43,140 bases of DNA, from IMG/VR virus record IMGVR_UViG_3300002920_000041, positions 1 through 43,140 of that record; one strand, given 5' to 3'. This DNA comes from a virus. The notes under the pieces were generated by a model. The model ran no database searches, was not told the DNA's origin, and saw only the letters and a list, made by a program, of their open reading frames with translations. Shown here one piece after another: positions 1 through 43,079 of this stretch; position 1 is the first letter of the stretch, and each line of letters begins with the position of its first letter. Position numbers and translations under genes: made by a program.

Positions 1-77
1 AATCTACTGCGAACATCAGTTAATTCCCCTTTCGATGTTTTCGTTTATATCAAACAACTCATACCTCAATCTGCGCA
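1..77. repeat. Terminal direct overlap, identical to 43064-43140. It indicates a circular or circularly closed genome of about 43,063 bp.
   Basis: The 77 nt at the window start (aatctactgcgaacatcagttaattcc...ctgcgca) recur exactly at the window end. Gene 42696..43079 starts inside the repeat, and its ATG overlaps the TGA stop of 16..465 (TGATG) once the ends are joined. Confidence 0.9.
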
Positions 78-465: not shown

Positions 466-994
466 TATCCACCTCTGAGCGGTAATTAACCCGCAAGTAA
501 AACGCCATCCAGTCCTTGCTTAAATCTAAGAAAAATACGGGTCTGTACCACGCATAGGTCAGTGCAACCCTTTTGAAGCCTGCTGCGATAAACGACCGCG
601 CTCGCGCAATGTCTACCGAGCTTAGCTCAAAATTATCGATTGGAAAATCGTGAATAGGCTTATCAACGCCGTTTGCGCTTAGAATCCCACGCTCAACACG
701 CAGGTAATCGAGACGATCAACCTTACCTATCGTTTCGCTGCTCTGACAGCCCATATACAATGGAAGTGGGGGCGTTGTGAAGTCAGTGAATCGGAACGGG
801 ATCGGGTCGTGATTGACCCATAAGCCGTCATCAGAGAAGGAGATAAAAATGTAATCGAAGGGGAAATCTAACACAACCTCAACAGGCCTGGGCGGGCAGT
901 TGCTACCGCGGTATCGCCCACAAAAATAGGACGACCCAAAATTAGACGTAAAAAACCCATTCGGGAGCAGAACAAACTTACGCTTTGTTGGCAT
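458..994 (-). CDS. Hypothetical protein (178 aa)
   Basis: ATG at 994 is preceded on the minus strand by AAGGAAG. A TTGACA-N17-TATCCT promoter lies just upstream. No motif recognised. Confidence 0.8.
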   Translation of the reverse strand: MPTKRKFVLLPNGFFTSNFGSSYFCGRYRGSNCPPRPVEVVLDFPFDYIFISFSDDGLWVNHDPIPFRFTDFTTPPLPLYMGCQSSETIGKVDRLDYLRVERGILSANGVDKPIHDFPIDNFELSSVDIARARSFIAAGFKRVALTYAWYRPVFFLDLSKDWMAFYLRVNYRSEVDNA

Positions 995-1056: not shown

Positions 1057-1085
1057 AGGATAGCAACCCTTTGAAGCCTTGTCAA
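1057..1085 (-). promoter_or_regulatory. Putative sigma-70-type internal promoter of the leftward operon
   Basis: The minus strand reads TTGACA (1085-1080), a 17-nt spacer, then TATCCT (1062-1057). It lies in the 120-bp gap between 1115..1561 and 458..994. Confidence 0.5.
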
Positions 1086-10400: not shown

Positions 10401-10937
10401 ATTGATGATGAGATAAGGCAATGCGCGGAGCGCATCAGACCGAATGTCCCTGATTTGCTCAAGAAGCGCGGCAAACTCATTTTGCTTTTGACCAATTTTC
10501 CAACTTCATACCGTGTCAACGAGCTGCACCTGCTGACTGACGTGCTGTTTGAGGAAAAGGTTGATGAGCATCTATCGCTGCTACCAAGACCTTTGGTTGA
10601 GTACAGCGGTGAAGAGCTAATCAAACTGTTGCAAGAGGCGGGTCTGCAGAATCGCGAGGCGATTCGCAAGGTGCTGCAGGAGCGAGGCTTGACAAGACGG
10701 CGACCGCGTTACAAAACCCGCAACAGCAATCACCGGGAACTCGCCAAAACGCTCATCGAATCCGTGATGCGGCGTGAAATGGACGAGGCTGCGGCAAGCG
10801 GAAAGCCTTACGAGGGGCGCTCGATTTCGGGATGGATGCATTTTTGCGCTCAACAAATTGAAGGATTCAGCTTGACATGGCACTCGACTTCTGCTATACT
10901 GAAGGAAATCACGATCAACACTTCAAAACGAGGATAA
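7488..10937 (+). CDS. Primase-polymerase (AEP-like) fused to a P-loop helicase or NTPase (1149 aa)
   Basis: TTG start lies 5 nt after GAGGAGG. The N-terminal part has WCDIDC (DxD) and HDATRMLRLVGFRNKK (primase-type R..G..N.K). The central part has Walker A KAPLGSGKTHS and Walker B VVVIDES. Confidence 0.7.
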   Translation: MDRLFKDKPYLDEARLFLQAVWAAFPPESILGLTYDVLYNSKGDLRKGERPVWLTRAGLAEFFEEGLPSLQTRNESQDESGNIYFRPAARKRVIIDSVNANRYRTGTLDELTVVNSIWCDIDCVARGIDYDRAFGVLRDMQASIIWFTGGGLQAIWLTDKLIDVSSSDLAREFKARALAFLLPRFKAEGIEVDTSVHDATRMLRLVGFRNKKPSRKGAFATILHFEPDRRLAYADFMRIELPKPAQPIGGNGGRDDYVTFVNNPVNDGKQSDALYFVSGEFVARLIKREQPVERHPALVKVAASAAKAGIPMAALIQHLRPLAVEWFGKTGEQRRAFGELDSLVAWAYQNVEHGVSSDRYAVRLTENGFELVDDAVRRYRKPIDIDSLRLDSGQAHAIVEREDPEQAEEDLIPLRQIRAELPSVIGNFIDATRRRGEIGRTMLIKAPLGSGKTHSVWVELHKRALADDKFKAVFYGLFTYTKEQWRAYLADFGLQPDDVFYFEARNGRKGSIGYCAFHEEAEQVANKGYRVFDTLCMRCPHLSECQHNWYLSQKEAAENAQLVYARHNHALMLFELSDGRDVVVIDESIVDLIEAPIRLGFDDFADANNHFLRVNSPDAYQACDSLLRALRAVLAATPSKSTKYLDYEKHVRDGRWVVEQLLNYIEGEDMAEKQAVLELALEQSDDFFDELHPIINSQNNTAIIDVDNLPRRYLSTFIRLLRSEYGLWKAGHKDWNSRLFAFNNRFQVYPLPSIGVDRTTKAIIIDGTGDPKVYDGHIRTKDGKKLERREMRVYAPAAPQVAKVVQFADASFSKSSLAQNFTKAEETGESDKSLIRLIPEAMKQGLKGRGDIMTSKVLIVCYKPIKAQVRKLIDADPVLKALSRKGALVVEHFGNLRGRNDYADFDCALIVGTPRIPEAELIMRAKARFHEDPNLIGVQRVTRARAYKGTRKASLLFDYADDRLSEINYKLIDDEIRQCAERIRPNVPDLLKKRGKLILLLTNFPTSYRVNELHLLTDVLFEEKVDEHLSLLPRPLVEYSGEELIKLLQEAGLQNREAIRKVLQERGLTRRRPRYKTRNSNHRELAKTLIESVMRREMDEAAASGKPYEGRSISGWMHFCAQQIEGFSLTWHSTSAILKEITINTSKRG
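10872..10900 (+). promoter_or_regulatory. Near-consensus sigma-70-type promoter with extended -10, internal to the end of the primase gene
   Basis: TTGACA (10872-10877), a 17-nt spacer, then TGcTATACT (-10 at 10895-10900), located 45 nt upstream of the helicase ATG. The -10 block TGCTATACT is the same as at 25740-25748. Confidence 0.55.
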
Positions 10938-10945
10938 ACACGAAC

Positions 10946-12793
10946 ATGTACAACTTGAGAGATTATCAGCAAGAAGCGGTGCAAGCAGTTTTAGATGATT
11001 GGGGGCGCCTTGAGCGCCCGATCATATTTATGGCTACGGGTTCAGGAAAGACCGTCGTCATGGCGGATATAGTCAGGCGTGTCCTAGCCGAACAGCCGAT
11101 GGCGCGTTTTCTTGTGATTTCTCACACCCGTGAGATAGTCACACAGACTGTAAAGGCTTTCGAACGCCATGTTGGCATTGAGATCAGCGTCGAGATGGGT
11201 GATTCCGTTGCGTCGCCTGACTCGAAAGTAGTGGTGGCAACTAGGCAGAGTTTATTCGGGTCTCGTCTCGACAGGATTGCTAAAGTTGGTTTTACCCACC
11301 TTCTGATTGACGAGGCGCATCACGTAGCGCCAGACAATCAGTACTGGAAAATTTACAATAGTCTTCGTGAAGCTAACCCGACCCTCAAGGTGGCAGGCTT
11401 TACAGCCACCCCTCAAAGGGCTGACAGGTTAGGGTTGGCTATCTTTACCAAAATCGGGTTTAGATGGTCGATTATATCGGGCATTGAGGAAGGTTTTTTA
11501 GTACCCCCTGCCCGATATCAAGTCGAAGCCGAAGGCGTAACCCTTGCCAATTTGCGGGTCAAGCAAGGCGACTACGATCTAGTAGGTTTGAATAAAACCC
11601 TCAAGGCGGCTGATTGGCCGTCGGTCGCCCTCGCCGCTTGGGAGCGGTTCGCTGAAGGGCGCAAGACTGTAGCTTTCTTTTCATCGATTGAGCTCTCTAA
11701 GGCGTTCGTTAAGATCGCCAAAGAGAGAGGGATTGCGGCGGCGCATGTGGACGGCGAAATGCCTTTTTCAACCAGAGAATTTATCTTAGCCCGCTTCATG
11801 CGGGGCGAGATTAAAATTGTGTCGAACGTGGCTGTGCTAACGGAAGGCTTTGATGAGCCCACCATCGAAGCCATTCTGTGGGCAAGGCCCACCATGAGTG
11901 AGGTTCTTCTCACTCAAGCTGTAGGGCGTGGCTTAAGACCCGCTCAAGGTAAGCAGAACTGCCTAATTTTGGATCTGACTCCCGCCGACACCCGTCTTTT
12001 GACGACGGGGACTCTGTTGGGTTTGACTTCTCGTTGCCCCTCCTGCGGCGTTACTTTTCTGAAAGGTTTCGAAAAGTGCCCACGATGCGGCGCGCAAATT
12101 TACACAGGTTCGGTTCAGCGCTCAAAGCCTGCAGCCGATGTCCCCGATTCGGGTGAAAAGAGTAAAGCGCTGTCGGGCTTTAAGAAAGATGTGGAAGGTA
12201 TCGAGGTAAGGGCGCGCCCAAAGGCAGTATTTGAGGGCGACACCGAAATCCCAGAAATCCACTCGTTTTACAAATTCGAGAGGATTGATACTTACTTCGA
12301 CACGAACATCAAAGGCCACGCTGTCGCCTGCAAAGGAGAGTGGGTCTTCATTTTAGACCCGATCGAGCTTTGGGATTCCGCGCTGCTTGAGCGCGCAAAG
12401 GCTAGTTTGGATGAGACTGACCCTCTAGCTAAAAAGGCGGCGGAGCGGATTGTCAGCCTTAGCGGCGGTCACAGCATTGCGGTCTTCCGTTACACGGAGG
12501 AGACTGCAGACTTAATCTTTATCGACAAGTACCCATTTTTGGAGCAGGCTTTAGACGCTTATCGAAAACCATCCCTGCTCGCTGGACGGCAAGCAAGACA
12601 GACCCGCTGGTGGAATGATCCCGCAACCCCCAAGCAGCACGCATACTTGCGGTCGCTGCAAAAACAGTACGACGTTACTCTGAAGACACAACTGCGATAC
12701 AAAGGCGAGGTCTCTGAAGCCTTAAACCTAGTCAAGGCTTTTGGATACTTGCGAAACACCCTTATGATTCTTGCTAGGAGGATACCGCAATGA
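10946..12793 (+). CDS. SF2 DEAH-box DNA helicase with a Cys4 zinc ribbon and a C-terminal extension
   Basis: Motif I MATGSGKT, II LLIDEAHH, III GFTATP, VI QAVGRGLR, plus CPSCG...CPRCG. The ATG at 10946 is preferred over 10877 because it lies after the primase stop and GAGGA sits 11 nt upstream. Confidence 0.85.
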   Translation: MYNLRDYQQEAVQAVLDDWGRLERPIIFMATGSGKTVVMADIVRRVLAEQPMARFLVISHTREIVTQTVKAFERHVGIEISVEMGDSVASPDSKVVVATRQSLFGSRLDRIAKVGFTHLLIDEAHHVAPDNQYWKIYNSLREANPTLKVAGFTATPQRADRLGLAIFTKIGFRWSIISGIEEGFLVPPARYQVEAEGVTLANLRVKQGDYDLVGLNKTLKAADWPSVALAAWERFAEGRKTVAFFSSIELSKAFVKIAKERGIAAAHVDGEMPFSTREFILARFMRGEIKIVSNVAVLTEGFDEPTIEAILWARPTMSEVLLTQAVGRGLRPAQGKQNCLILDLTPADTRLLTTGTLLGLTSRCPSCGVTFLKGFEKCPRCGAQIYTGSVQRSKPAADVPDSGEKSKALSGFKKDVEGIEVRARPKAVFEGDTEIPEIHSFYKFERIDTYFDTNIKGHAVACKGEWVFILDPIELWDSALLERAKASLDETDPLAKKAAERIVSLSGGHSIAVFRYTEETADLIFIDKYPFLEQALDAYRKPSLLAGRQARQTRWWNDPATPKQHAYLRSLQKQYDVTLKTQLRYKGEVSEALNLVKAFGYLRNTLMILARRIPQ

Positions 12794-17028: not shown

Positions 17029-17621
17029 CGCCGAGCGGGCGCGACGCTAGGCTCGGCGATGCGGTCAGTAAAGCGGTATTGCAGACGGTCGTCACGGCTA
17101 TTGAGAAGGTCTTGATGGGTATCGGGGATGGGTTGTGCGATGAAATTTCAAAAGCTGCGCATGAAATTTCAACAGCTCAAGATGAAATTTCACAGCAGGG
17201 CAATGAAATTTCAAATCGGGGTGATGAAATTTCAAGTCGAGGGAATGAAATTTCAAGGGACAGGACTGAAATTTCAAGCCATGAAAATGAAATTTCAAGG
17301 GGCGGCGTTGAAATTTCATCGGGCGGCGATAGCAGGCGGCGTGAAGGCTGCCGAGACAGTGAGACGGGTCGATTGGCAGGACTTGAAATTTCAAGTGAAA
17401 TTTCATCCGCTGAAATTGAAATTTCAAGAGGCGATGAAATTTCAAGTGAAATTTCATCCGAAATCGCAAGGCATCCTAAGCCGCTCAACGCCAAAGCGGT
17501 CGCGGATATCCTGCGCAACAATCCCGATTTGCTCCACATGCGCGGCAAGGATTTGGCGGCAGTGTTTGGCGTCACGCCTGTCGTTATCACAAGGGCGAGA
17601 AAGTTAGTAGCTCATGGCTAA
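17025..17621 (+). CDS. EIS-repeat protein with a C-terminal helix-turn-helix-like segment. The gene carries the TGAAATTTCA iteron array.
   Basis: A GTG start overlaps the upstream stop (ATGTGA), and the stop overlaps the next ATG by 8 nt, so it is translationally coupled in the operon. It has 14 x-E-I-S units. The C-terminus reads GKDLAAVFGVTPVVITRARKLV. Confidence 0.65.
   Translation: MTPSGRDARLGDAVSKAVLQTVVTAIEKVLMGIGDGLCDEISKAAHEISTAQDEISQQGNEISNRGDEISSRGNEISRDRTEISSHENEISRGGVEISSGGDSRRREGCRDSETGRLAGLEISSEISSAEIEISRGDEISSEISSEIARHPKPLNAKAVADILRNNPDLLHMRGKDLAAVFGVTPVVITRARKLVAHG
17141..17318. repeat. Iteron array A: nine exact copies of the palindromic TGAAATTTCA at exact 21-bp spacing
   Basis: Copies start at 17141, 17162, 17183, 17204, 17225, 17246, 17267, 17288 and 17309. 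The 11-bp spacers are variable. Confidence 0.95.
17384..17460. repeat. Iteron array B: five more exact TGAAATTTCA copies, one TGAAATTGAAA variant and a 26-nt internal direct repeat
   Basis: Copies start at 17384, 17396, 17417, 17435 and 17447 (spacings 12, 21, 18, 12). TGAAATTTCAAGTGAAATTTCATCCG occurs at 17384-17409 and at 17435-17460. TGAAATTGAAA at 17411-17421 equals the arm of the 64-bp palindromes. Confidence 0.95.
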
Positions 17622-18306
17622 GCGACTGTTCGAAAGCCCTTCGCTTTTCCAAGAATTCATGGACAAGCCCTTCAATAGAGGCGAACAGCCGCTTTCCTTC
17701 TATCTTGAGCGGTTTAAGGCGCTCGTCAAAAGCATCGCCAATCAATACCTTGATTTGGCGGAAAAGGCGGCTTACAGCTTTGAGGACTTGGCGCAAATCG
17801 GCTACGAGGCGCTGCAAAGGGCTTATGGGCGGTTCGACCCCGATCGGAAACGGCGCAACAGGTCGAGCGGCTCAATCGGGCATTTCTTCTCATACGCAAA
17901 GCAGGCGATCACACGGTCAATCGAGCGTGAGGTGTTCGCCGCTGTCGGCTTGCCTAGCAATTACCGCGCGCGCCGCGAGCCTGACATCGCTCCGATCGTC
18001 CAACTAAGCCTTGAAGGGCTTGTCGAGGAGGGCATTACGCCTTATCAGTTAATTGACAACTCATCACTAGAGGAGGAAATAATTAAACAGGAAACAAATC
18101 AAGAGCAGCTGGAAATTATCCTTGAAAGTCTATACACTCTTAACAGCGCTGAGCGATTCATAGTTGAAAGAATGCTGAGCGGGGTATCGCTTGAGGATAT
18201 CGAGAGCGATTTCCAAAGAGAGCATTCAGAGAGCGCAAAGATCGTGTTCAGACAAGCGGTATCGAAAATTCGTAGAGCAGTCAGAAAGCGGAGGAAAAAC
18301 CAATGA
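17614..18306 (+). CDS. Sigma-70-family RNA polymerase sigma factor (phage-encoded, copy 1)
   Basis: Region 2-like YEALQRAYGRFDPDRK...FFSYAKQAITRSIEREV. Region 4-like LNSAERFIVERMLSGVSLEDIESDF...FRQAVSKIRRAV. Confidence 0.7.
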   Translation: MAKRLFESPSLFQEFMDKPFNRGEQPLSFYLERFKALVKSIANQYLDLAEKAAYSFEDLAQIGYEALQRAYGRFDPDRKRRNRSSGSIGHFFSYAKQAITRSIEREVFAAVGLPSNYRARREPDIAPIVQLSLEGLVEEGITPYQLIDNSSLEEEIIKQETNQEQLEIILESLYTLNSAERFIVERMLSGVSLEDIESDFQREHSESAKIVFRQAVSKIRRAVRKRRKNQ

Positions 18307-19016
18307 TAGTCCCTAATGAGCGATTCAATGAGCGCTATAACCCGCGTGATAGTAAGTCAGAACCCATCGAAAAGCTAAAATTCAAATGCATAGGAGCAGC
18401 TTCTCTAAACTCACATGGTGACCAGTGGCTTTTCGAAGACCTTTTGCAGACCGCTTACGAAACGGTATTGGTCTGCGCTAATCGGTTCGATCCGAAAAGA
18501 GCGGGCGGCGATACCTATAGGCATTTCTACAGCTACGCATCGGTCGCAATAGACCGCAACGTCCGGGATGCGGCGGCGCAATTCAGCAGCAGCCCAAAGC
18601 CGATTGTCGAAAAATCAGCGGTCAAAGACTCCAAAAAGCCAAAGAAAACGCGCGGCAAGCGCGGCGTTGAGTTTGTGTCTGAGGATATCCTAGACCTTCA
18701 CCCTGACCCGCGCCCTGACCCTGAAGCCGCGCTCGAAATCAAGAGCCGCGAGGAGAAAATCAAGGCGCTAATCAAAATCGCGTTGGATGCTTTAGATGAG
18801 CGCCTGCGTTTTATCGTTGTAGCCCGTTTTGGGCTTGAGACAGGTGTTCCCATCGACGGCGCGGCTTTAGCGGCGCGCTATGAAGCTCGTTTTGGCGCAA
18901 AGCTCACTAAGTTGAATACGATGTACAAACAAGCTTTTCGCAAAATGCGGGCTGCATTGGAAAGGGCTGGCTATGCCACAAAGTCGGAGGAGATCGCCGA
19001 ACTATTCGGATTCTGA
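18303..19016 (+). CDS. Sigma-70-family RNA polymerase sigma factor (phage-encoded, copy 2)
   Basis: ATGA overlap with copy 1. Region 2-like YETVLVCANRFDPKRAGGDTYRHFYSYASVAIDRNVRDAA. Region 4-like LDERLRFIVVARFGLE...MYKQAFRKMRAAL. Confidence 0.7.
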   Translation: MIVPNERFNERYNPRDSKSEPIEKLKFKCIGAASLNSHGDQWLFEDLLQTAYETVLVCANRFDPKRAGGDTYRHFYSYASVAIDRNVRDAAAQFSSSPKPIVEKSAVKDSKKPKKTRGKRGVEFVSEDILDLHPDPRPDPEAALEIKSREEKIKALIKIALDALDERLRFIVVARFGLETGVPIDGAALAARYEARFGAKLTKLNTMYKQAFRKMRAALERAGYATKSEEIAELFGF

Positions 19017-20876: not shown

Positions 20877-21200
20877 TTAGCTCTGGATATCCTCAGGCAA
20901 TTCACCCGTCTCAAAAATGCGCTTCAGCAACCCACCAATGTAGTCTAATAGCAGTTCAGAGACGTATACGAATTCCGCCATGTAGAGACCTAAAATAGCC
21001 TCACTGCCCAGTTCGACAAGCTCCTCTCTCTTCAGCCCGTGTTTGCGGATCGCCAATTCCATGAAGGCGATGAACTTGTCATCAACGAGGCTCTCGACCG
21101 ATTCCTGCAAGTCTAAGTCCTCAATGATTGAAGCGACCGCGATCGAGACCAAAAGGCGCTGCTCTTCAGCGCTTAGCCGTTCGAACTTCTGTTTGCTCAT
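20877..21200 (-). CDS. Small, strongly acidic hypothetical protein (107 aa); a lone leftward gene
   Basis: TAGGAGG SD on the minus strand. About 25 Asp/Glu against about 11 Lys/Arg. It is transcribed divergently from the structural operon. Confidence 0.75.
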   Translation of the reverse strand: MSKQKFERLSAEEQRLLVSIAVASIIEDLDLQESVESLVDDKFIAFMELAIRKHGLKREELVELGSEAILGLYMAEFVYVSELLLDYIGGLLKRIFETGELPEDIQS

Positions 21201-21667
21201 AATTGCTGCCTCCTATATCCAAAATTAGGCTAACGCTGCCAATCGAGACATTTTCTCCAAAAACCCGATTTTTGAGCCTTTCTGAAAGTTTTAAAGCTCA
21301 ATGTGTAATCTATAGGGGCGGGTCGTTTCATAGGGTCTGCAGCCCGATTTTTTAGGCTATCGAATACGCAACGCGACAAAACAGCAGTTTAGAAAAAAAG
21401 AGACCGATTCCCTAGCCCCCGCTTTACACTTCAATCTTGGTTCAGCACACCAGAGCTAAAACAGCCCGTGACAAGCGAGGGAAGCCGTTTTGAATCGCGG
21501 CAAGCGTTTAGAGGCTCAAATTTAAGCGGCTATTCTTCAGGCGTGGCAGAGCAGGCGGCTCTTAGGTAAGGTTCACGCTAAGTGACCCTGACCGCGTTAG
21601 AGTGAATATACAACTTAGCAGGTTTTTGAAGGTCGCAAAAGATGCCGACCAGCAGTGGGTAGCGGCG

Positions 21668-21733: not shown

Positions 21734-21848
21734 GGATCGGCTGATGCCCTCCTCGCTTGGAAATTGATTGTCAGGCGGCTTTGCTCAAGCCGCTCCAAAG
21801 CGCGCTATATGCCTTGCTCTGCTAAGTTGGCAGCAGAGGAGTCAGCTT

Positions 21849-22691
21849 ATGGTCTTGCCAATCTTCCGCTTGGCGCGGCAGTTCAACTTTCGAATCGTGA
21901 TTAAGGACGGCGCTTACTTGCTGGGCGGCGCGGGCTTTGCCTTCATCCCTATTGAGGGCGCGTTCACATACCCCCGCAAAATCCTGCGAATCCCTGCAGA
22001 GGACGGGCGTTTGCGCTTTGAGAGCGGCGTTGTCATTGTCGAGCGCGATGCTGGGCTAGGCTTAGCTGAAGAGGTTTTGGCGACCGAAACCTATAAGCAA
22101 AAGTTGCCACGCCGCAATCGAGAGCGCAATTTGCGTGGATTCGCGCTGCCAAACAATATGCTTCCTGAGTGGATAGGCGGGCTTAGCTTGCCTGCAGCGA
22201 TAAGCGAACACCTGCACAGTTTGCCTGCCCGTCGCGTCAGCTTTTCGGACGGGTACGCCACAGTCCTGACGCCCGATTGCCACATCTCAACGCCTATCAA
22301 GCCCGAAATCGACATTGGCAAGGCTTATGACATGGGCTTGATTTTGACGGCGCGCACCCTGTCATTTTACAGCGGCGCTGTCGTCGAGAGCGGTTTGCGT
22401 TACACGAATAATAAGAGCGGTGTGTACATATTCGCTCAGGCGTTGAATCCGCTCAAGCCCTGCAAATTTGAAGGCGGTGACGTTATCCCTGCTCAAGCGC
22501 TGAATTACAGCGTCTCAGGTAACGACGCCGTCCTTGATTTGAGCTGCATAGACCACGAGCCGATTCGTGTCCCGCGCAGCCCGTTCACGGCATTGATGCA
22601 TGGCGCTAAGACAATTCGTGTCAAGGTGAGTCGGGATTTTGCGATGTTTGAGACCGAGAGCGGCATCGGCAGCCTCAGGATAAGGAGTTGA
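21849..22691 (+). CDS. Hypothetical protein (280 aa); first gene of the structural operon
   Basis: The ATG at 21849, 7 nt after AGAGGAG, is preferred to the TTG at 21768. No motif recognised. Confidence 0.75.
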   Translation: MVLPIFRLARQFNFRIVIKDGAYLLGGAGFAFIPIEGAFTYPRKILRIPAEDGRLRFESGVVIVERDAGLGLAEEVLATETYKQKLPRRNRERNLRGFALPNNMLPEWIGGLSLPAAISEHLHSLPARRVSFSDGYATVLTPDCHISTPIKPEIDIGKAYDMGLILTARTLSFYSGAVVESGLRYTNNKSGVYIFAQALNPLKPCKFEGGDVIPAQALNYSVSGNDAVLDLSCIDHEPIRVPRSPFTALMHGAKTIRVKVSRDFAMFETESGIGSLRIRS

Positions 22692-22693
22692 GC

Positions 22694-25162
22694 ATGGCAA
22701 AACGCGGGGCTATCCGCCGCAAATTGGCGCGGCGCTTTCAAGCGAGCCAACAGTTCAGCAGGGCGTGGTATGTCGGCGACGCGACGCGCTCTGACAAGTT
22801 GCCTGCAGCCGATGTGAGCGTTGGCAACGCCGGGCTATTCAATCGCGATGAGCAGGCTGCGATTTACGCCGCGTCAATTACTGCGTGGGCTTGTGTAAAG
22901 TTCAGGGCGGACGCCGTATCGAACATCGATTTGGTTGTGCAGAGCGATCTCGATTCGCAGCTAGAGTATTCCCCCGCCCGCGATTTTGTTGAGAACTCGC
23001 GTGAGCTGCTGTGGTTGCTGACAGCGTCCCTTTTGGTCTTTGGCAACGCCTTTCTGTACAAGGTTCGCAATGAATACGGCTTGCCGACTGCAGTGACCTT
23101 CATATCGCCGATGGACGTTACTGTGCAGAGCGATTTGATGACAGGCGAGCCGTCCCGTTTTCTGCTGACTAATTCCCTGCAGGAAATCCCGCAACGCGAC
23201 TTGATTTTCTTGCGCTTGCCAACACCGCTAGGCACGCGGTATGGCAACTCTCCTTCCGATATTGTCCGTTATCGGGCGGTAGCAGAGCGCAATTTGGGTG
23301 AATGGTCGCGTCAGTTCTTTGCCAACTCCGCGCGCCCTGATGGGCTGCTCATATTTGAAGGCATGATTACGCCTGAGCAGCTTGAGCGGCAAAAGGAGGC
23401 TTGGCAGCAGATGCGCAGCCCTAGCAATGCGTGGAAAACGTTTGTCGCGGGGTCGACACAAGGCGGCAAATGGACGTGGCAGCCTATTACACCACCTCCG
23501 ACTGATTTGGCGATGCGGGATTTCCTAGACCAAATTCGCTTTGATATATGCGCGGCTTATCAGGTGCATCCTACACTGTTAGGCGGCAGCCCGTCAGACC
23601 CGCTCGGCGCGTCGAACACATACAACGATGTATGGCTAAATCATGTCAAGCATGTGGCTTTGCCCATGCTTCGCATGATACTAGAAGGGGTGAATCGCCA
23701 ATGGTTGCACAGCGATTTCGCCAATATTGGCTACGAGCTTAGCATCGAAGTCGACCTGAACAAACTGAACAGAATCATTTTGGCGACGCCTGAACGCTTC
23801 AGCATGTCAACGGCAGCCTTCAATAGCGGGGTCATGACCTTAGACGAGGCGCGCCAATTCATAGGCTTGCAACCATCGTCAGTCGGCTTTTCGACAGACG
23901 CCTCTCGCGTCCTGCCCTTTTATCAGGGCGGCGTCGTGACCTTAAACGAAGTCAGAGCCGCGCTTGGTCTAGAAGCTTTACCAACAGGCAATGTCGTGTT
24001 GGTCAACGGAGTGCCGACTCCGATTGCCGATATCGGCAAGCCTGCTCTGCAGCCTCTGCTGCCGCCGCTGCCGCCGCCGACTCAATTGCCTTTGATTGAG
24101 GACTTACCTGCTCAAGACCAAACCGCTTTGTCGGCTGAAGAGGACGCGCCGCTAAGTGCTGAGCAGATCGCCGAGCTGCGCAGTTGGCATTCGGCTGTCC
24201 TTAGCCATGCAATTCATTACGGCGATTTCAACGCGCCTTTCAAAGCGGTCAAATTGCCTCAAAAATTGGCGAATTGGGTGTCTGAACAGCTGAAGGGCTA
24301 TTGGAATCCAGACTTGATTTTTGAGCGCGCTGCACGGCTTGAAATTGACGCTCCGATTGAAGCTTCAGACGGCAGCGCCTTTTGGCGGCAATTAGAGAGC
24401 GAGCCTTCACTGAACACGCTTTTCGCTGACCTGTTTGTGGAATCACAGCAGCTTAGCGAGGATGATTGGTCTGAGCTTGAGGCGCTTGTGAGCAGCACGC
24501 CGTCTTCTGAATTAGAAGTCGAGCTGTTGAGATGGTTTTCCGAATGGCTTGAGCGCCATGCGACTGATTATGAGCAGCGTTTTGCAAAACATCTTGCAGG
24601 CGCTTTTGTCGGTGGCGTCAAGGCGGCGGATGAGCAGTTGCGCAGCGCCGTTGTCAAGCGCGATTTGACTTTCGCAATTGATTGGAATCTAATCGCGGAC
24701 GAGGCGGTCTCTTACGCGCTTACTCAGTCAGCGCAGTTGGTCAGGCAAATCAACCAAACGACTTTGCTGCAATTGCAGCAGGTGATTGCTGACGCTGTCA
24801 AGCAAGGCGCTTCTATCCCGCAATTGCGCGATGCCATTGCGCGGGTGTTCGCGGTTCAGGGCTATCCAATTTCGCAGCAATTGATGAATCGCGCGCAGAT
24901 GATAGCGGAGACAGAACTGACCCGTGTTTACGCTGAAGGAGCTTTTGAGCGATACAAGACCGCCGGCGTAACCCGCGCGATATGGCAGACGGCGCAAGAC
25001 AAAGACGTTTGCCCTGTTTGCCGATCGCGCCATAACGCTGTCAGCGATTTCAAGCGCGGGTGGCGATCGGCTTTAGATGGTCAATACCTGACACCACCGG
25101 CGCACCCTCGCTGCCGTTGCTTCACACTGCCTGTGGTTGAGGGGGTCACCGATGTCGGCTGA
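22694..25162 (+). CDS. Portal protein fused to a MuF/SPP1 gp7-like minor head protein domain
   Basis: ATG lies 6 nt after AAGGAG. The N-terminal ~430 aa are portal-sized, followed by a Pro-rich linker LQPLLPPLPPPTQLP. The C-terminal part has IAETELTRVYAEG...WQTAQDKDVCPVCRSRHN...PPAHPRCRC, typical of the Mu F family. Confidence 0.75.
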   Translation: MAKRGAIRRKLARRFQASQQFSRAWYVGDATRSDKLPAADVSVGNAGLFNRDEQAAIYAASITAWACVKFRADAVSNIDLVVQSDLDSQLEYSPARDFVENSRELLWLLTASLLVFGNAFLYKVRNEYGLPTAVTFISPMDVTVQSDLMTGEPSRFLLTNSLQEIPQRDLIFLRLPTPLGTRYGNSPSDIVRYRAVAERNLGEWSRQFFANSARPDGLLIFEGMITPEQLERQKEAWQQMRSPSNAWKTFVAGSTQGGKWTWQPITPPPTDLAMRDFLDQIRFDICAAYQVHPTLLGGSPSDPLGASNTYNDVWLNHVKHVALPMLRMILEGVNRQWLHSDFANIGYELSIEVDLNKLNRIILATPERFSMSTAAFNSGVMTLDEARQFIGLQPSSVGFSTDASRVLPFYQGGVVTLNEVRAALGLEALPTGNVVLVNGVPTPIADIGKPALQPLLPPLPPPTQLPLIEDLPAQDQTALSAEEDAPLSAEQIAELRSWHSAVLSHAIHYGDFNAPFKAVKLPQKLANWVSEQLKGYWNPDLIFERAARLEIDAPIEASDGSAFWRQLESEPSLNTLFADLFVESQQLSEDDWSELEALVSSTPSSELEVELLRWFSEWLERHATDYEQRFAKHLAGAFVGGVKAADEQLRSAVVKRDLTFAIDWNLIADEAVSYALTQSAQLVRQINQTTLLQLQQVIADAVKQGASIPQLRDAIARVFAVQGYPISQQLMNRAQMIAETELTRVYAEGAFERYKTAGVTRAIWQTAQDKDVCPVCRSRHNAVSDFKRGWRSALDGQYLTPPAHPRCRCFTLPVVEGVTDVG

Positions 25163-25688: not shown

Positions 25689-25720
25689 AGCGTCTCTCAT
25701 CATTCTCTCATCTAAGGTGC

Positions 25721-25748
25721 TTGACAGGGATTTTGAGTGTGCTATACT
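25721..25748 (+). promoter_or_regulatory. Near-consensus sigma-70-type promoter with extended -10, driving the moron gene
   Basis: TTGACA (25721-25726), a 16-nt spacer, then TGcTATACT (-10 at 25743-25748). Confidence 0.6.
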
Positions 25749-25812
25749 TTGAATTGTAAGCGCACCAATCAAGGTGACAAGCGCAAAAAACCGAAGGAAA
25801 AGGAAAAGAAAC

Positions 25813-26193
25813 ATGATCAACCTTAACGCCATTTCAGTCCCATCATACGCCTACGATTTCAAGAAGCAAATCCTCCTAGTTTTTGACGGGAAGGAAGTTG
25901 TGGTGGATGGTGGTGATAAGATTCGCAAAGTTTGGGCGGCCCAATCCAATCTCTCTTTTTTGAAGGCAGTTAAGCCCTTATCTTTTTGGTCGCCTTCAGA
26001 GACTGAGGCACGCTCTATTCACATTTTCGCGCGAGTTGGTGTGTGGGTTTACCGATTCTCTCGTCTTGATTACACTCTCACGAAGAGACGTGGTAAAGGC
26101 GATTTACCGACAGGCAGCTTTTACAGCCCTGACGATCTTGGGTTGTTGTCAAATTTCTGGTTCATTTCGCTAGATGAGGCTTGGAACGCATAA
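25813..26193 (+). CDS. Hypothetical protein (126 aa) in an autonomous promoter-gene-terminator cassette (moron)
   Basis: The ATG at 25813 follows a purine-rich AAGGAAAAGGAAAAG. Counting 60-nt lines gives about 45-50% GC here against about 53-65% in neighbouring genes. No motif recognised. Confidence 0.7.
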   Translation: MINLNAISVPSYAYDFKKQILLVFDGKEVVVDGGDKIRKVWAAQSNLSFLKAVKPLSFWSPSETEARSIHIFARVGVWVYRFSRLDYTLTKRRGKGDLPTGSFYSPDDLGLLSNFWFISLDEAWNA

Positions 26194-26205
26194 TTGCTCA
26201 TCTTC

Positions 26206-26229
26206 AAGCGCCCGAAAGGGCGCTTTTTT
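26206..26229 (+). terminator. Rho-independent terminator 1 of a tandem pair
   Basis: AAGCGCCC, loop GAAA, GGGCGCTT running into TTTTTT. Confidence 0.8.
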
Positions 26230-26242
26230 ATTTCCTTCGACT

Positions 26243-26270
26243 AAGACCGCGCGAGCGGTCTTTTTGTTTT
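26243..26270 (+). terminator. Rho-independent terminator 2 of a tandem pair
   Basis: AAGACCGC, loop GCGA, GCGGTCTT followed by TTTGTTTT. Confidence 0.75.
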
Positions 26271-26312
26271 ACCTCACAAGCGCCTTGCTAAGTTCGCCAT
26301 AGAGGAGGCGCT

Positions 26313-28454
26313 ATGGGCTGCAAGTACGCTTTTGTCCGCGCAACAGACGGCGATCATATTCAAGGCTATTTGGCGTTGTGGGGTTCACCCGATCAGCCTG
26401 ACTGTTTTGGCACGTGGTTCGACCGCGATGAGCCACCGGACTTTGGTTTGATTGACGGCGCGCCTATTCGGCTGATGTATGAGCATGGACAAGACCCTGA
26501 GGTCGGCAAGACGGTCATTGGCAAGGTCGTGCGCACATGGCATGACGATGTAGGCATCGCCTTTGAAGCGGTCTTGTTTTCAGATAATCATCATTATCGG
26601 AAGTTGCTCAATGAAATCCGACTAGGCTTGCTCGGCGTCAGCAGCGCGTCTGCTGAACACCTTGCCGAGTTCGATGAGGACGGGCGGTTCAGGACGTGGT
26701 TGCTATCGGAGGTCAGTCTTACGAAACGCCCTTGCGAGCCGCGCATGAAGGTATTGCATGTCGAGTTAACGCGGGACGCGATTCCTGTTTACCGCGCTAA
26801 GTTGGTCTCAGATGAGACTGCGAGGAGAGATGAAATGGCTACACGGTCTTTTGAAGAGATGGGCATCCCATCCGATGTTGACGCCACCCAGCTTCTGTCG
26901 TCACTGATTGAGCGCGACGGAGTCGAGAGCGTCATTGCGCTTTTGAAGGCGATGGTAGGCGTCGATGCAATGCCTAGCAATATGGCGGAGCTTGCCGAAT
27001 CCGTCGCGCAATCGACTGATGAGGACACGGCGGTCAGCACCGCAAATAGCGCGCCTGAGGCGGATATGACTGAAGAGGACGAGGACGCTACTGAGACCGC
27101 CAGACCCAATCCCGCCCGCCCGCGCCAAAAGGTCACCGCTGACCCTAAAGCCGTCGCGCAAGAGATGCTGCGCATGGTCATGCAGCAGCCTAAAGAGCGC
27201 AAGCCTGTTATCACAGGTGTCCGAGATCGCTTTTATGACACCTTTACGCCTGGACAATTGGCTTTCGGTTACCAGACTGTCCAGCGGCTTGTCAAGGATG
27301 GTCGTTTGGAAAGTTCAGCGCTGCGCGGAGATTTTGCAGCTAAATTGGCGGCGAAGACCCGTTCGGAGGTGGCTCGCGGCGCGTATGCGCGGCTAATGCC
27401 GCCTTACCGCGCGGATGAAGTCGTGAACACAGGGCAGACGGGTTACGGCGCGGAATGGATGCAAACGCTGCCTGGTACTGAGCTGTGGGAAAAGGTCTAC
27501 AGTGAAGCCCGCCTTTTCAACGCCCTTGTCGAGCGCGGGCTTAACTATGGCGAAATCCCTCGTGGACACAATCAAGAGACGATTTTGGTCGAGGGTGCTA
27601 GTCCTACGTTTTACGTCGCTGGCGAGGTCACTGACGTCGCCTCAGGCAGCGCTTTACCAACTCCTAAATTCGCGGTCTCAAAGTTCGCGACTGCAAAGCG
27701 CACGTTGAGCATCAAAAAGCTCGGCGCTGCTGTCGTGCTGACGCGCGAGATGGAAGAGGACACAATCTTTGATGTTCTCACGCAAACGTACACTCAATTG
27801 CAGCGCAAGGCGACGGAGGAGATTGAGTACATCCTGATTAACGGCGACGAGGCGACCGCTGCCAACACGAATATCAATCTCATCGACGGCACTCCTAGCG
27901 GCGGCACGACACGCCCGTCTTACCTGCTCTTCAACGGCATTTTGAAGCTGCCGCTCGTGACAAACACGGCGCTTGCTTATGACGCGCTTAACACGCTCTC
28001 GCCCGCCGTTTTCCTTGAGCTGCTCAAGCGTTTGCCAGCCGCTGACCAAATCCCTAGCGACCGTCTGCTGTTTGTGATGGATATGGACACGGCAATCAAG
28101 ACGATGTCGCTTGCTGAAGTGCAGACGCGCGATGTGTTCAGTTTGGCGACCCTTGAGAACGGCATGTTGCCTTTCCTGTACAAGATAGGCGTCCTGCCGA
28201 GCGCTTTCATGTACAAGGGGCGGGCTTTGGATGGTAAGCGTTCAGCTACAGAAGCGAATAACAATCGCGGGCGCATAGCGCTAGTCCGTGCTGATCGCTG
28301 GGCTTTCCGCTTCAAGCGCCAAATCGAGGTCGAGACAGACCGCAACGTCTATACGGACAGCACGACAGTCGTGTGTTTCCTGCGCTGCGGTTTCACTAAC
28401 TTCTCTGACTCGACGGGCGCGACTGCTGCTTACAACGTCGGCGTGACGATCTAA
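26313..28454 (+). CDS. Prohead protease, acidic scaffold-like linker and HK97-fold major capsid protein in one ORF (713 aa)
   Basis: GAGGAGG SD. The N-terminus GYLALWGSPDQPDCFGTWFD...IRLMYEHG...IGKV...DDVGIAFEAVLF fits the caudoviral prohead serine protease pattern. The middle segment is rich in D/E/A/T. The C-terminal ~400 aa are capsid-sized, in the position expected for a capsid gene. Confidence 0.7.
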   Translation: MGCKYAFVRATDGDHIQGYLALWGSPDQPDCFGTWFDRDEPPDFGLIDGAPIRLMYEHGQDPEVGKTVIGKVVRTWHDDVGIAFEAVLFSDNHHYRKLLNEIRLGLLGVSSASAEHLAEFDEDGRFRTWLLSEVSLTKRPCEPRMKVLHVELTRDAIPVYRAKLVSDETARRDEMATRSFEEMGIPSDVDATQLLSSLIERDGVESVIALLKAMVGVDAMPSNMAELAESVAQSTDEDTAVSTANSAPEADMTEEDEDATETARPNPARPRQKVTADPKAVAQEMLRMVMQQPKERKPVITGVRDRFYDTFTPGQLAFGYQTVQRLVKDGRLESSALRGDFAAKLAAKTRSEVARGAYARLMPPYRADEVVNTGQTGYGAEWMQTLPGTELWEKVYSEARLFNALVERGLNYGEIPRGHNQETILVEGASPTFYVAGEVTDVASGSALPTPKFAVSKFATAKRTLSIKKLGAAVVLTREMEEDTIFDVLTQTYTQLQRKATEEIEYILINGDEATAANTNINLIDGTPSGGTTRPSYLLFNGILKLPLVTNTALAYDALNTLSPAVFLELLKRLPAADQIPSDRLLFVMDMDTAIKTMSLAEVQTRDVFSLATLENGMLPFLYKIGVLPSAFMYKGRALDGKRSATEANNNRGRIALVRADRWAFRFKRQIEVETDRNVYTDSTTVVCFLRCGFTNFSDSTGATAAYNVGVTI

Positions 28455-28812: not shown

Positions 28813-29636
28813 CGACCAAGCCACTGTTGCGAATCGGCGAGTTCAAGACGCTCGCCAATATCACTTCAAACAGCGCCGATTCGCAACTTCTGACGCTAAT
28901 CGAGGCGGAGAGCGAATTTGTCACGGCGCGTTGCCAAAGGCGATTCGATCCGCATGTTGTGACGTTACGGCTTACCGCCGCGCCGACTTATCGCGGCGGT
29001 AACGTATCATCATCGAACAGCCGTGTGCTGTTGCTAGACTACGATGTGCAAAAGCTCATCAGCGTGACAAACGGCGATTCGGCGCAGACGGCTATCGCAC
29101 TTGCTGACGTTGAGCTTGACAAGACGTTGCGAACTTTGCGCCTGTTGAGCGATTCGCTCACATGGCAGAGCGATGCTGCTGACGGCAAGTTCATAGAGGT
29201 CAAGGCGGAATGTGGTTTCGGTTACCGCTTTGAGGACAAGGGCAAGACGCTTAGCGCTGCGCTGACCAATACCGCAACGACCTTTCAAAGCGCGGGCGGT
29301 TTTGAGCGCGGTCAACTTGTCAGGATAGATGATGAGTTTCTGTACATTACGGCAGCGAACGCGCCGAATTACACGGTCGAGCGCGGCGCTAACGGGACGA
29401 CGGCAGCTGCACACGCGAATGGCGCGGCGATTTTAGAGTTTGAAGCGCACCCGTCTGTGAAAGATTATGTCAAGCGGGGTGTGCAGCTGCGCTTATCGCA
29501 GACGGGCGCTGTTGTGATAGGGACAAACGCGGCGGGCGACCCCATCTTGCAAAGCATCGGGTCAGCGCGAGCTGCGCTTGTGCAGAGCCTAGCTTTAGAA
29601 GGCTTAGTCGACTTGAAAGGTTTTGGCGGCGTATGA
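28809..29636 (+). CDS. Head-tail connector or adaptor (gp6-like N-terminus) with an extended C-terminal domain
   Basis: ATGA overlap. The N-terminus LLRIGEFKTLANITSNSADSQLLTLIEAESEFVTARCQRRF resembles head-tail connector family openings. The call is partly positional. Confidence 0.5.
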   Translation: MTTKPLLRIGEFKTLANITSNSADSQLLTLIEAESEFVTARCQRRFDPHVVTLRLTAAPTYRGGNVSSSNSRVLLLDYDVQKLISVTNGDSAQTAIALADVELDKTLRTLRLLSDSLTWQSDAADGKFIEVKAECGFGYRFEDKGKTLSAALTNTATTFQSAGGFERGQLVRIDDEFLYITAANAPNYTVERGANGTTAAAHANGAAILEFEAHPSVKDYVKRGVQLRLSQTGAVVIGTNAAGDPILQSIGSARAALVQSLALEGLVDLKGFGGV

Positions 29637-30136
29637 CGGTAACAGTCGACTTATGCGAACGGATTGCGGAATGCGTCAGGCAAATTGACGGAGTCAAGCG
29701 CTGCTTTGAGCTGCCGCCGACGGTAGCGCCAAATGACATTGAAGCGCCTTTGGCTTACATCATCCCGCAAGACGTTGTGAATGCCTTACCGTTTGGTCAG
29801 GCGGGTTCACAAATCGTGACCCGCAATTTTCAGGTTGTTTTCCTGATTGCGGAGCTTACGTCTTCACTAGGAATCGATGACGGCGATAAGGGCGTCACGG
29901 CGGCGAGGACGGCGCTCAACATCTGCGACCGCGCCATCAGTTATTTCATGACAAACCCGCGCCTGCAGGTTCGCTCAAATGGCGTTCTGCTGCAGGACGC
30001 CTTTGCTAAGTTGAGTAGCGACGTGAGCGTTACTGCGTCGGGGCTTATCACGACAAATTACGCGGAGCGCGACTTCATTAGCTTCAACCTAAACATGACA
30101 GTCGCGTATCGGCTAATCACGGATCAGGTCAATTAG
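29633..30136 (+). CDS. Head-closure or tail-completion protein (positional call)
   Basis: ATGA overlap. Lies between the connector and the major tail gene. Confidence 0.45.
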   Translation: MTVTVDLCERIAECVRQIDGVKRCFELPPTVAPNDIEAPLAYIIPQDVVNALPFGQAGSQIVTRNFQVVFLIAELTSSLGIDDGDKGVTAARTALNICDRAISYFMTNPRLQVRSNGVLLQDAFAKLSSDVSVTASGLITTNYAERDFISFNLNMTVAYRLITDQVN

Positions 30137-42695: not shown

Positions 42696-43079
42696 TCACT
42701 CTGGCGACCTTTTGAAGTTTTCTTTCTCTGGGTCGTGACCTAACGCCATGAGTAGTTCATCCTGCCAACTGAAATCGGGGTCAAAATCGGCTGAATAAGT
42801 ACAGCGGATGAAATCCGCCACGTCCCCGCTGTAATATAGGCATAGGATAGCCGCAAAATCAATGAGGTAGCGTTTCACAGCCACCCTCGATTCAAAATTC
42901 AAAAGTGAAGTGTTCAGTTTGAAACGAGCCTCTTGAACGCTTACGATAAGACCATGCGGGTCGTCATCGCTTAGCACTTCAATAGCGCGCTCGAAACAAA
43001 CATCCAAAATATCCCGTCCGGGCTTGAAAAACAGAGGGTCAAATTTGAAGACAGCCTCGAACAAATCTACTGCGAACAT
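42696..43079 (-). CDS. Hypothetical protein (127 aa); last gene of the leftward operon across the circular junction
   Basis: The ATG at 43079 corresponds to position 16 and overlaps the stop of 16..465. No motif recognised. Confidence 0.75.
   Translation of the reverse strand: MFAVDLFEAVFKFDPLFFKPGRDILDVCFERAIEVLSDDDPHGLIVSVQEARFKLNTSLLNFESRVAVKRYLIDFAAILCLYYSGDVADFIRCTYSADFDPDFSWQDELLMALGHDPEKENFKRSPE

What the first reader, a model, noticed from the sequence alone, without database searches (positions are those of the whole stretch)
25721..26270. Self-contained promoter-gene-double-terminator cassette (moron) between portal-region genes and the capsid gene
The cassette consists of:
- a near-consensus extended -10 promoter (TTGACA-N16-TGcTATACT);
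- a 126-aa ORF with no recognisable motif;
- two consecutive strong intrinsic terminators, GCGCCC-GAAA-GGGCGC-T6 and AAGACCGC-GCGA-GCGGTCTT-T-rich.

All of this sits inside an otherwise tightly coupled late operon. By direct counting of 60-nt lines, the ORF is about 45-50% GC against about 53-65% in adjacent genes.

Established knowledge: this layout is the classic signature of a horizontally acquired moron expressed independently of the late operon. Such genes are often host-modulating, exclusion or defence/counter-defence functions.

The tandem terminators directly upstream of the capsid gene also imply that late transcription must read through them or restart. That would fit with antitermination or a phage sigma-dependent promoter.
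Basis: partly seen in the sequence, partly recalled or inferred. Interest (0 to 1): 0.62.

Follow-up and report, generated by a model that had tools for sequence, protein, structure and literature searches.

The report
Insulated variable gene before capsid gene
An uncultivated 43-kb phage carries, between its portal and capsid operons, a small orphan gene with its own host-type promoter and two terminators. The unit is real and is present in every known relative, but the gene has diverged far more than its neighbours, so it looks like a familiar "moron-like" accessory gene slot rather than a new kind of system.

Summary
A near-consensus extended -10 promoter (25721-25748), a 126-aa ORF (25813-26193) and two strong hairpin/T-run terminators (26206-26233, 26243-26272) lie between the portal-operon genes and the protease-capsid gene. 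The promoter match is far beyond chance.

- **Not a recent insertion.** The unit is syntenic in all 10 related loci found, and no empty site exists. One relative has lost the promoter but kept the gene and both hairpins. Another has lost hairpin 1.
- **A real, unusually divergent gene.** It is protein-coding (pN well below pS). Its alleles are far older than their flanks: about 50% aa identity and saturated synonymous sites, against 87-91% identity in the flanks. The alleles are internally mosaic, and the ORF has the lowest GC of 30 rightward genes.
- **Sharp boundaries.** Divergence starts after the -10 box and ends at hairpin 1.
- **Orphan protein.** The family has 14 metagenomic members, no domain hit and no structural match.
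- **A restart promoter.** The capsid gene has its own candidate promoter, TGCTAAGTT, a 9-mer found four times at conserved late-region sites.

Most likely this is a fixed, exchangeable accessory-gene slot. Host RNA polymerase would transcribe it early, and the terminators would insulate the capsid operon. No transcript data could be obtained.

The parts
25689..25720 (+). Spacer between the stop codon of the 183-aa gene and the -35 box. No hairpin lies here, so portal-operon transcripts should run into the cassette.
   Evidence: One search finds no terminator-like site here. The sequence is largely conserved in relatives.
25721..25748 (+). Class A promoter: TTGACA-16 nt-TG-c-TATACT, a sigma-70 consensus with an extended -10.
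   Evidence: 11/12 match with TG. Beyond chance. Both hexamers are invariant in the four sequences aligned, while the spacer varies. Present in 10 of 11 loci and deleted in L007.
25753..25812 (+). Predicted 5' leader, purine-rich and unstructured. It is the start of the hypervariable segment.
   Evidence: 20-44% DNA identity to relatives. Folding is no better than shuffles, z = -0.28.
25813..26193 (+). 126-aa orphan protein gene (P0001). Predicted soluble alpha/beta protein.
   Evidence: pN 0.28-0.36 against pS 0.65-0.81. 14-member family. AF2 pLDDT 90, pTM 0.83. No Pfam, PHROG, NCBIfam, PADLOC, PDB or BFVD match.
26206..26233 (+). Intrinsic terminator T1: 8-bp stem, GAAA loop, T-run.
   Evidence: Present in 10 of 11 loci, absent in L003.
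26243..26272 (+). Intrinsic terminator T2: 8-bp stem, GCGA loop, T-run.
   Evidence: The stem is invariant in 11 of 11 loci while the loop varies (GCGA, GCAG, TTCG).
26286..26294 (+). Class B motif TGCTAAGTT. This is a candidate -35-less extended -10 promoter for the capsid operon.
   Evidence: 4 exact copies in the window against 0.29 expected, with 0 of 100 shuffles reaching 4. The same four places are conserved in two relatives.
26301..26315 (+). Shine-Dalgarno AGAGGAGG and the ATG (26313) of the protease-capsid fusion gene.
21820..21851 (+). Second class B motif (21820-21828), then AGAGGAG and ATG 21849. This is the start of the portal operon, whose first gene is probably 280 aa rather than 307.
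10872..10900 (+). Second class A promoter, ahead of the helicase gene (ATG 10947).
   Evidence: The helicase is only 37.5% identical in relative G001.
1057..1085 (-). Third class A promoter, ahead of leftward genes of unknown function.
   Evidence: The downstream genes are 50-62% identical in G001.
17614..19016 (+). Two tandem sigma-70-family genes. They are candidate readers of the class B promoters.
   Evidence: PF04542 and phrog_351. TIGR02937 at E = 4e-8 and 6e-8, below the curated cut-off.

Best explanation
The cassette is a fixed, moron-like accessory-gene slot at the junction of two late transcription units.

Shown by the sequence and by comparison:
- A sigma-70 consensus promoter (P1), a 126-aa protein gene under purifying selection, and two canonical hairpin/T-run terminators.
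- The promoter boxes and terminator stems are conserved in relatives.
- The segment from just after the -10 box to the stop codon is the most diverged stretch of the structural region.
- Alleles of the gene are older than their flanks and are internally recombined.

Inferred:
1. Host RNA polymerase with its primary sigma fires P1 from the start of infection. This makes a monocistronic mRNA of about 480-515 nt.
2. Later, transcripts of the portal operon also run through the gene, because nothing terminates them upstream of it.
3. T1 and T2 stop both kinds of transcript. This keeps early transcription out of the capsid gene and marks the end of late unit 1.
4. The capsid operon restarts 24 nt after T2 from its own promoter (TGCTAAGTT). 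That promoter may be read by one of the two phage sigma factors.
5. The protein is not a conserved virion part. It is a soluble accessory protein that meets a variable partner in the host or in competing elements, so an anti-defence, exclusion or host-takeover role is most likely.
6. The conserved promoter and terminators act as homology arms for swapping alleles.
For: - Promoter: 11/12 match with TG. Genome-wide 2 such sites against 0.013 expected.
- Promoter class: CTTGACA-N13/14-TGCTATNCT occurs 3 times, with 0 in reversed-pattern controls. Each copy sits at the 5' edge of a module that is 37-62% identical to relative G001, while most genes are 80-94% identical.
- Terminators: -15.6 and -14.0 kcal/mol, z = -4.8 and -3.8.
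- Element census: P1 in 10 of 11 loci, T1 in 10 of 11, T2 in 11 of 11.
- Selection: ORF pN 0.28-0.36 and pS 0.65-0.81. Flanking genes have dN 0.01-0.10 and dS 0.26-0.89.
- DNA identity by segment against relatives: promoter 0.71-0.76, leader 0.20-0.44, ORF 0.54-0.55, T1 0.87-0.90 (0.40 against L003, which lacks T1), T2 0.75-0.83.
- Mosaicism: pairs with the N-half 92-100% identical but the C-half 48-58%.
- GC: lowest of 30 rightward genes.
- Restart promoter: TGCTAAGTT occurs 4 times against 0.29 expected. The sites are positionally conserved, and two are followed by AGAGGAG and an ATG 27-29 nt on.
- Sigma-family genes.
- Distant relatives with 31-37% capsid identity hold unrelated small genes upstream of the capsid gene.
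Against: - There are no transcript data.
- The host is unknown, so 'host consensus' is an assumption.
- L007 lacks P1 yet keeps the gene with a good SD and a GTG start, so late read-through expression alone can suffice. That fits a virion or assembly role as well as an accessory one.
- No similarity to any known anti-defence, exclusion or regulatory protein.
- Only 1 of 5 AF2 models was confident.
- All family members come from a handful of related metagenomes, so the sampling of relatives is narrow.
- The link between class A promoters and divergent modules rests on three cases in one genome pair.
Confidence: 0.5

Rival explanations
1. The ORF is an ordinary last gene of the portal/head-morphogenesis operon. 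It would encode a virion-associated or assembly accessory protein, for example an internal head protein or a decoration or maturation factor. T1/T2 are simply the operon's terminators, and P1 is an internal booster promoter.
For: - The gene lies in the head module, directly after portal-MuF and a weakly HK97-gp10-like gene.
- It is syntenic in every relative.
- There is no terminator between the upstream gene and the ORF.
- L007 expresses it without its own promoter.
- One family member gave a marginal PHROG hit to 'virion structural protein', E = 0.011, in 1 of 14 members.
- A conserved N-half with a variable C-half would suit a packaged protein with a targeting part.
Against: - A partner of the 87-91% conserved capsid and portal proteins would be expected to be similarly conserved. 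Instead this gene is about 50% identical with saturated synonymous sites.
- It has the lowest GC in the genome.
- A full-consensus host-type promoter is conserved in 10 of 11 loci, whereas the structural operon starts carry a different motif.
- Distant relatives lack the gene.
Confidence: 0.25
2. One reading: a recently and horizontally acquired moron, meaning foreign DNA inserted between two genes that are adjacent in related phages.
For: - Promoter + ORF + terminator anatomy and low GC.
- The window's allele is the outlier of the family, at 46-53% identity to all others.
Against: - All 10 related loci carry a homologue in the same slot, with the same promoter and terminators.
- No empty site was found.
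- There is no homologue in 185,579 bacterial species genomes or in 50,697 phage records that could serve as a donor.
Confidence: 0.1
3. A lambda pR'-tR'-like late switch. P1 would be the strong constitutive promoter for the capsid and tail genes. T1/T2 would hold transcription back until a phage antiterminator modifies RNA polymerase. The ORF would simply ride on the short transcript.
For: - A strong promoter followed by tandem terminators immediately upstream of all the capsid and tail genes.
- The 30 nt upstream of the -35 box and the first bases after the -10 box are conserved.
Against: - L007 has lost P1 but keeps T1, T2 and the capsid-proximal motif.
- The capsid gene has its own conserved promoter-like motif, shared with the portal-operon start.
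- No antiterminator-like protein was recognised among the genes scanned.
- The transcribed segment is hypervariable rather than conserved, as a recruitment or pause site would need to be.
Confidence: 0.08
4. The transcribed unit is a non-coding or regulatory RNA, and the ORF is fortuitous.
For: - Short transcript with terminators.
- Weak sub-threshold Rfam hits that only reflect the tandem hairpins.
Against: - The reading frame is open in all 14 members, with 28 invariant residues.
- pN is well below pS.
- A confident fold prediction.
- The leader shows no structure signal.
Confidence: 0.02

Closest known systems
Morons of lambdoid phages (Hendrix/Juhala concept, as summarised in PMC4378225: a single coding region flanked by a promoter and a terminator, inserted between two genes that are adjacent in related phages, with deviant composition)
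   Same: Its own sigma-70-type promoter, one ORF, its own terminator(s), a position inside the late structural region, and lower GC than the neighbours.
   Different: No relative with an empty site. The slot is occupied in every known relative by diverged alleles of the same gene. One relative has lost the promoter. The terminators are tandem and also serve as the end of the upstream operon. The phage shows no lysogeny genes, so expression from a prophage is not the obvious rationale.
Anti-CRISPR region (RGP G) in the head module of Mu-like Pseudomonas phages (PMC4378225, PMC10155984; Aca regulation in PMC13551039)
   Same: Small, low-GC, variable accessory genes embedded in the head-morphogenesis gene block, ahead of the protease/scaffold/capsid genes (my reading of the RGP order in PMC4378225; the exact flanking genes are from memory). 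They have their own promoter, and early expression has to be kept from harming the phage.
   Different: No sequence or fold similarity to any solved Acr. No adjacent HTH aca-type repressor gene. Here insulation would be by two terminators instead of a repressor. The function is untested.
Lambda pR'-6S RNA-tR' late control unit
   Same: A strong host-type promoter, a short transcript and a terminator placed just upstream of the late structural genes.
   Different: The transcript encodes a conserved protein. The capsid gene has its own promoter-like element. A natural variant lacks the promoter. No Q-like protein was recognised.
Phages that encode their own sigma factors and use host-consensus promoters for early genes (SPO1, phiEco32; from my own knowledge, not tested here)
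   Same: Two promoter-like sequence classes in one genome, together with phage sigma-family genes.
   Different: Assignment of the classes to sigma factors is entirely inferred here. An early-class promoter inside the structural region is unusual for those models.

Membership tests
Moron (promoter-gene-terminator insertion) | Own promoter directly upstream of a single ORF | tested here: met
   TTGACA-16-TGcTATACT, 11/12 with TG, beyond chance. Conserved in 10 of 11 loci. This is sequence evidence only.
Moron (promoter-gene-terminator insertion) | Own terminator directly downstream | tested here: met
   Two hairpin/T-run sites, -15.6 and -14.0 kcal/mol. T2 is present in 11 of 11 loci.
Moron (promoter-gene-terminator insertion) | Inserted between two genes that are adjacent in related phages (an empty site exists) | tested here: not met
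   All 10 related loci carry the gene in the same slot. Distant relatives have other genes there and a different layout.
Moron (promoter-gene-terminator insertion) | Nucleotide composition differs from the adjacent genes | tested here: met
   GC 0.462 against 0.55-0.56 in the flanks, the lowest of 30 rightward genes. In five of the six relatives the ORF is 3-9 points below its flanking genes. In L003 the ORF (0.526) is no lower than the upstream gene (0.521).
Moron (promoter-gene-terminator insertion) | Transcribed independently of the late operon | not testable with these tools
Anti-CRISPR / anti-defence locus | Sequence or fold similarity to a known anti-defence protein | tested here: not met
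   No Pfam, PHROG or NCBIfam hit. Foldseek against PDB and BFVD gives best TM about 0.3 and no E <= 0.001. The PDB profile search finds nothing.
Anti-CRISPR / anti-defence locus | Adjacent HTH regulator (aca-type) in the same small operon | tested here: not met
   The cassette holds one ORF only. The next gene is the protease-capsid fusion.
Anti-CRISPR / anti-defence locus | Inhibits a host defence system | not testable with these tools
   This needs an experiment, and the host is unknown.
Intrinsic (factor-independent) terminator | GC-rich hairpin immediately followed by a U-tract | tested here: met
   Both T1 and T2. The stems are conserved while the loops vary. No compensatory changes are available because the stems are invariant.
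Lambda Q-type antitermination unit | Q-like antiterminator gene, and dependence of the late genes on the upstream promoter | tested here: inconclusive
   No antiterminator annotation among the ORFs scanned with PHROGs, but many ORFs are orphans. L007 lacks the promoter, which argues against dependence.

The most novel reading that the evidence does not exclude
The roughly 130-aa family is a new anti-defence or exclusion protein with a previously unseen fold. Its variable C-terminal half would track a variable host or competitor target. The cassette would also show a second solution to the problem that anti-CRISPR loci solve with Aca repressors: a strong early promoter inside the head-gene block is made harmless by tandem terminators plus a restart promoter, rather than by repression.
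Probability: 0.3. Interest if true: 0.6.

Novelty: new member of a known kind. Interest (0 to 1): 0.36.

Why it matters
If the reading is right, this slot is a ready-made pointer to a new phage accessory protein family. The family has an orphan sequence and no structural neighbour, and allele turnover suggests it is engaged in an arms race.

It also gives a clean natural example of how a phage insulates an early, host-transcribed gene placed between two late operons. The two promoter-like classes found along the way give a testable map of this uncultivated phage clade's transcription programme:
- a full sigma-70 consensus at three divergent modules;
- TGCTAAGTT at four conserved late-region sites.

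None of this departs from known principles of phage genome mosaicism, so the general significance is modest.

Tried and rejected
- **WD40 similarity.** The exhaustive HMMER search gave 12 long WD40-repeat proteins at E = 4e-8 to 8e-4. These are sums of 4-9 short matches to one beta-hairpin-like stretch (residues about 22-51). That stretch is not conserved in the ORF's own homologues. Rejected as a repeat artefact.
- **Annotated phages.** blastn and tblastn against 50,697 phage records found nothing.
- **Family libraries.** Pfam, PHROGs, NCBIfam and PADLOC gave no credible hit, both on single members and on all 14.
- **Structure.** The first AF2 run with 5 sequences was poor (pLDDT 65). The run with 14 sequences gave pLDDT 90. 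Foldseek on PDB and BFVD gave only noise.
- **Distant relatives.** Their small genes upstream of the capsid gene are not remote homologues (hhalign probability about 1% or less).
- **RNA families.** Rfam gave only sub-threshold hits to the hairpins.
- **T7-like promoter idea.** I first read the capsid-proximal block (..CGCCATAGAGGAG) as a possible single-subunit RNA polymerase promoter. The 21-mer occurs only once and no such polymerase was detected, so I dropped the idea in favour of the recurring TGCTAAGTT 9-mer.
- **A pattern error.** My gap length was wrong and gave zero hits. It was corrected.
- **Literature.** I could not find an open-text sentence giving the exact genes that flank the Mu-like anti-CRISPR region. 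That positional analogy therefore rests partly on memory.

Full report
**What the window is.** The window is a complete 43,140-bp uncultivated phage genome with direct terminal repeats. The main genes are:
- a leftward block of orphan genes;
- a helicase, a family-A DNA polymerase and a methyltransferase;
- two tandem sigma-70-family genes at 17614-19016;
- small and large terminase;
- a portal-MuF fusion at 22688-25162;
- a 183-aa gene with a marginal HK97-gp10-like hit;
- a 713-aa protease-capsid fusion at 26313-28454.

The finding lies between the last two.

**Observation.** Every element is present as described. The promoter TTGACA-16-TG-c-TATACT (25721-25748) matches 11 of 12 consensus positions and has the TG extension. 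Only two such sites exist in the genome, against 0.013 expected, and 0 of 300 simulations reach two.

The ORF runs from 25813 to 26193 and encodes 126 aa. T1 (26206-26225 plus a T-run) folds at -15.6 kcal/mol with z = -4.8. T2 (26243-26262 plus a T-run) folds at -14.0 kcal/mol with z = -3.8. The ORF's GC is 0.462, the lowest of 30 rightward genes (mean 0.532, sd 0.026), against 0.55-0.56 next door.

**Is it a gene?** Yes.
- An exhaustive HMMER search and a profile search recover a family of 14 proteins of 126-133 aa, all metagenomic. They share 28 invariant residues.
- Between the window and three relatives, non-synonymous differences (pN 0.28-0.36) are far below synonymous ones (pS 0.65-0.81).
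- With the 14-sequence alignment AlphaFold2 gives pLDDT 90 and pTM 0.83 for a mixed alpha/beta protein, though only one of the five models is confident.
- Nothing in Pfam, PHROGs, NCBIfam, PADLOC, PDB sequences, PDB structures or BFVD resembles it.
- The WD40 hits are artefacts of summing a short motif over repeats.

I examined 10 distinct related loci: L001, L002, L003, L007, L008, L009, L028, L029 and L032, plus L010, whose ORF encodes the same protein as L009's. All have the same order: 18x-aa gene, ORF, hairpins, capsid gene.

Counting the window, the census over 11 loci is: P1 in 10, T1 in 10, T2 in 11. The two exceptions are informative:
- **L007** has a deletion of about 90 bp. It removes the upstream gene's stop codon and the whole promoter, leaving the ORF with an AGGAG Shine-Dalgarno and a GTG start 18 bp after the extended upstream gene. 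Both hairpins remain.
- **L003** lacks T1.

No bacterial genome of 185,579 species and no deposited phage holds a relative. More distant phages, with 31-37% capsid identity, have unrelated small genes upstream of the capsid gene and no such bracketing signals.

**What is unusual about it.** The gene is far more diverged than its surroundings.
- Against relative G001, most genes are 80-94% identical in protein, and the ORF is 51%.
- The excess is not only in amino-acid changes. Synonymous sites are saturated in the ORF, while the flanking portal, 183-aa and capsid genes have dS of 0.26-0.89. The alleles are therefore older than their flanks, which indicates allele exchange rather than fast evolution in place.
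- The boundaries are sharp. Against relatives, DNA identity is 0.71-0.76 across the promoter, 0.20-0.44 in the leader, 0.54-0.55 in the ORF and 0.75-0.90 again from T1 onward, apart from L003, which has no T1.
- Within the family several pairs are 92-100% identical in the N-terminal half but 48-58% in the C-terminal half. Recombination also occurs inside the gene, and the C-terminal half is the variable part.

**Transcription architecture.** The pattern CTTGACA-N13/14-TGCTATNCT occurs three times, with 0 in controls. One copy is here, one is ahead of the helicase ATG, and one is ahead of leftward orphan genes. In the comparison with G001, the genes after those three promoters are among the most divergent in the genome: 51%, 37.5% and 50-62%.

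A second motif emerged from the conserved block between T2 and the capsid ATG. The 9-mer TGCTAAGTT occurs four times, against 0.29 expected, and 0 of 100 shuffles reach four. All four sites are in the structural region, and all four places are conserved in two relatives.

Two of the copies lie 27-29 nt before an ATG, with AGAGGAG in between. These are the capsid gene (26313) and the first gene of the portal operon, whose true start is then ATG 21849. The motif reads as an extended -10 (TG-n-TAAGTT) without a -35.

Together with the two sigma-family genes, this supports the following reading, which is inference and not demonstration. Class A sites are host-polymerase promoters and class B sites are late promoters. 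The cassette would then be an early-class unit between two late units. T1/T2 end both the cassette and the portal operon, because there is no terminator between the 183-aa gene and P1. The capsid operon restarts right after T2.

**Function.** Homology gives nothing, so the argument is contextual.
- A partner of the conserved capsid or portal proteins would be expected to be conserved. Instead the gene turns over alleles, has deviant GC, and carries a host-type promoter that the structural operon starts do not use.
- That profile fits an accessory protein dealing with a variable host or competitor factor, such as anti-defence, exclusion or host takeover.
- The closest documented parallel is the low-GC anti-CRISPR region in the head module of Mu-like Pseudomonas phages (PMC4378225; PMC10155984). 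There, unregulated early expression is harmful and is tamed by Aca repressors (abstract of PMC13551039).
- Here there is no HTH partner gene. Tandem terminators plus a restart promoter would do the insulating.
- This is an analogy, not membership. The defining features of an anti-defence locus that I could test were not met.

The main rival is a virion-associated or assembly accessory protein expressed as the last gene of the portal operon. L007 shows that the gene can do without its own promoter, and the conserved-N, variable-C pattern would also suit a packaged protein.

**Verdict.** However, the unit is a fixed, syntenic slot with allele exchange, not a recent insertion. It is a new member of a known kind.

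Noticed in passing
window 21612-21620(-), 21820-21828(+), 26286-26294(+), 30004-30012(+): The 9-mer TGCTAAGTT occurs four times (0.29 expected), at places conserved in two relatives. It is a candidate late promoter -10 element without a -35, possibly read by the phage's sigma factors. The minus-strand copy points into the 567-bp gap towards the acidic gene 20877-21200, and the copy at 30004 lies inside gene 29633-30136.
   Followed up: partly
window 10872-10900 and 10947-12793; G001 11149-12663: The helicase after the second consensus promoter is only 37.5% identical to its counterpart in G001, while the flanking 1149-aa gene and the DNA polymerase are 83-87% identical. G001 has no matching promoter there. 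This looks like a module replacement.
   Followed up: partly
window 21768-22691: The 307-aa ORF listed from TTG 21768 probably starts at ATG 21849 (280 aa). That matches the relatives and places an AGAGGAG Shine-Dalgarno and the TGCTAAGTT motif just upstream.
   Followed up: yes
L007 5940-6005: A natural deletion of about 90 bp removes the stop codon of the 18x-aa gene and the whole cassette promoter. The upstream protein gains six residues, and the ORF starts at GTG behind an AGGAG.
   Followed up: yes
L001 1000-1045, L002 5435-5475, L008 1018-1052: The leaders of several relatives contain short direct repeats (GCAAGAGC / CAACAAGAGCAAC) that the window's leader lacks. Their meaning is unknown.
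   Followed up: no
L001 1495-1530: A 10-nt duplication (CTAAGACCGC twice) lies just before hairpin T2 in this relative, as if from slippage or recombination at the terminator.
   Followed up: no
L012 847-4797: In a distant relative (capsid 33% identical) the portal gene encodes 1316 aa, with weak ADP-ribosyltransferase domain hits (PF03496, PF01129) in the place of the MuF domain.
   Followed up: no
window 25780-25753 (-): A 10/12 promoter-like site on the minus strand lies inside the ORF's leader. The leader is not conserved in relatives, so this is probably chance.
   Followed up: partly
window 16-994(-) and 42696-43079(-): The leftward genes after the third consensus promoter, and the gene across the genome end, are 50-62% identical to G001, against 80-94% for most genes. 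This is a second hypervariable accessory block.
   Followed up: no
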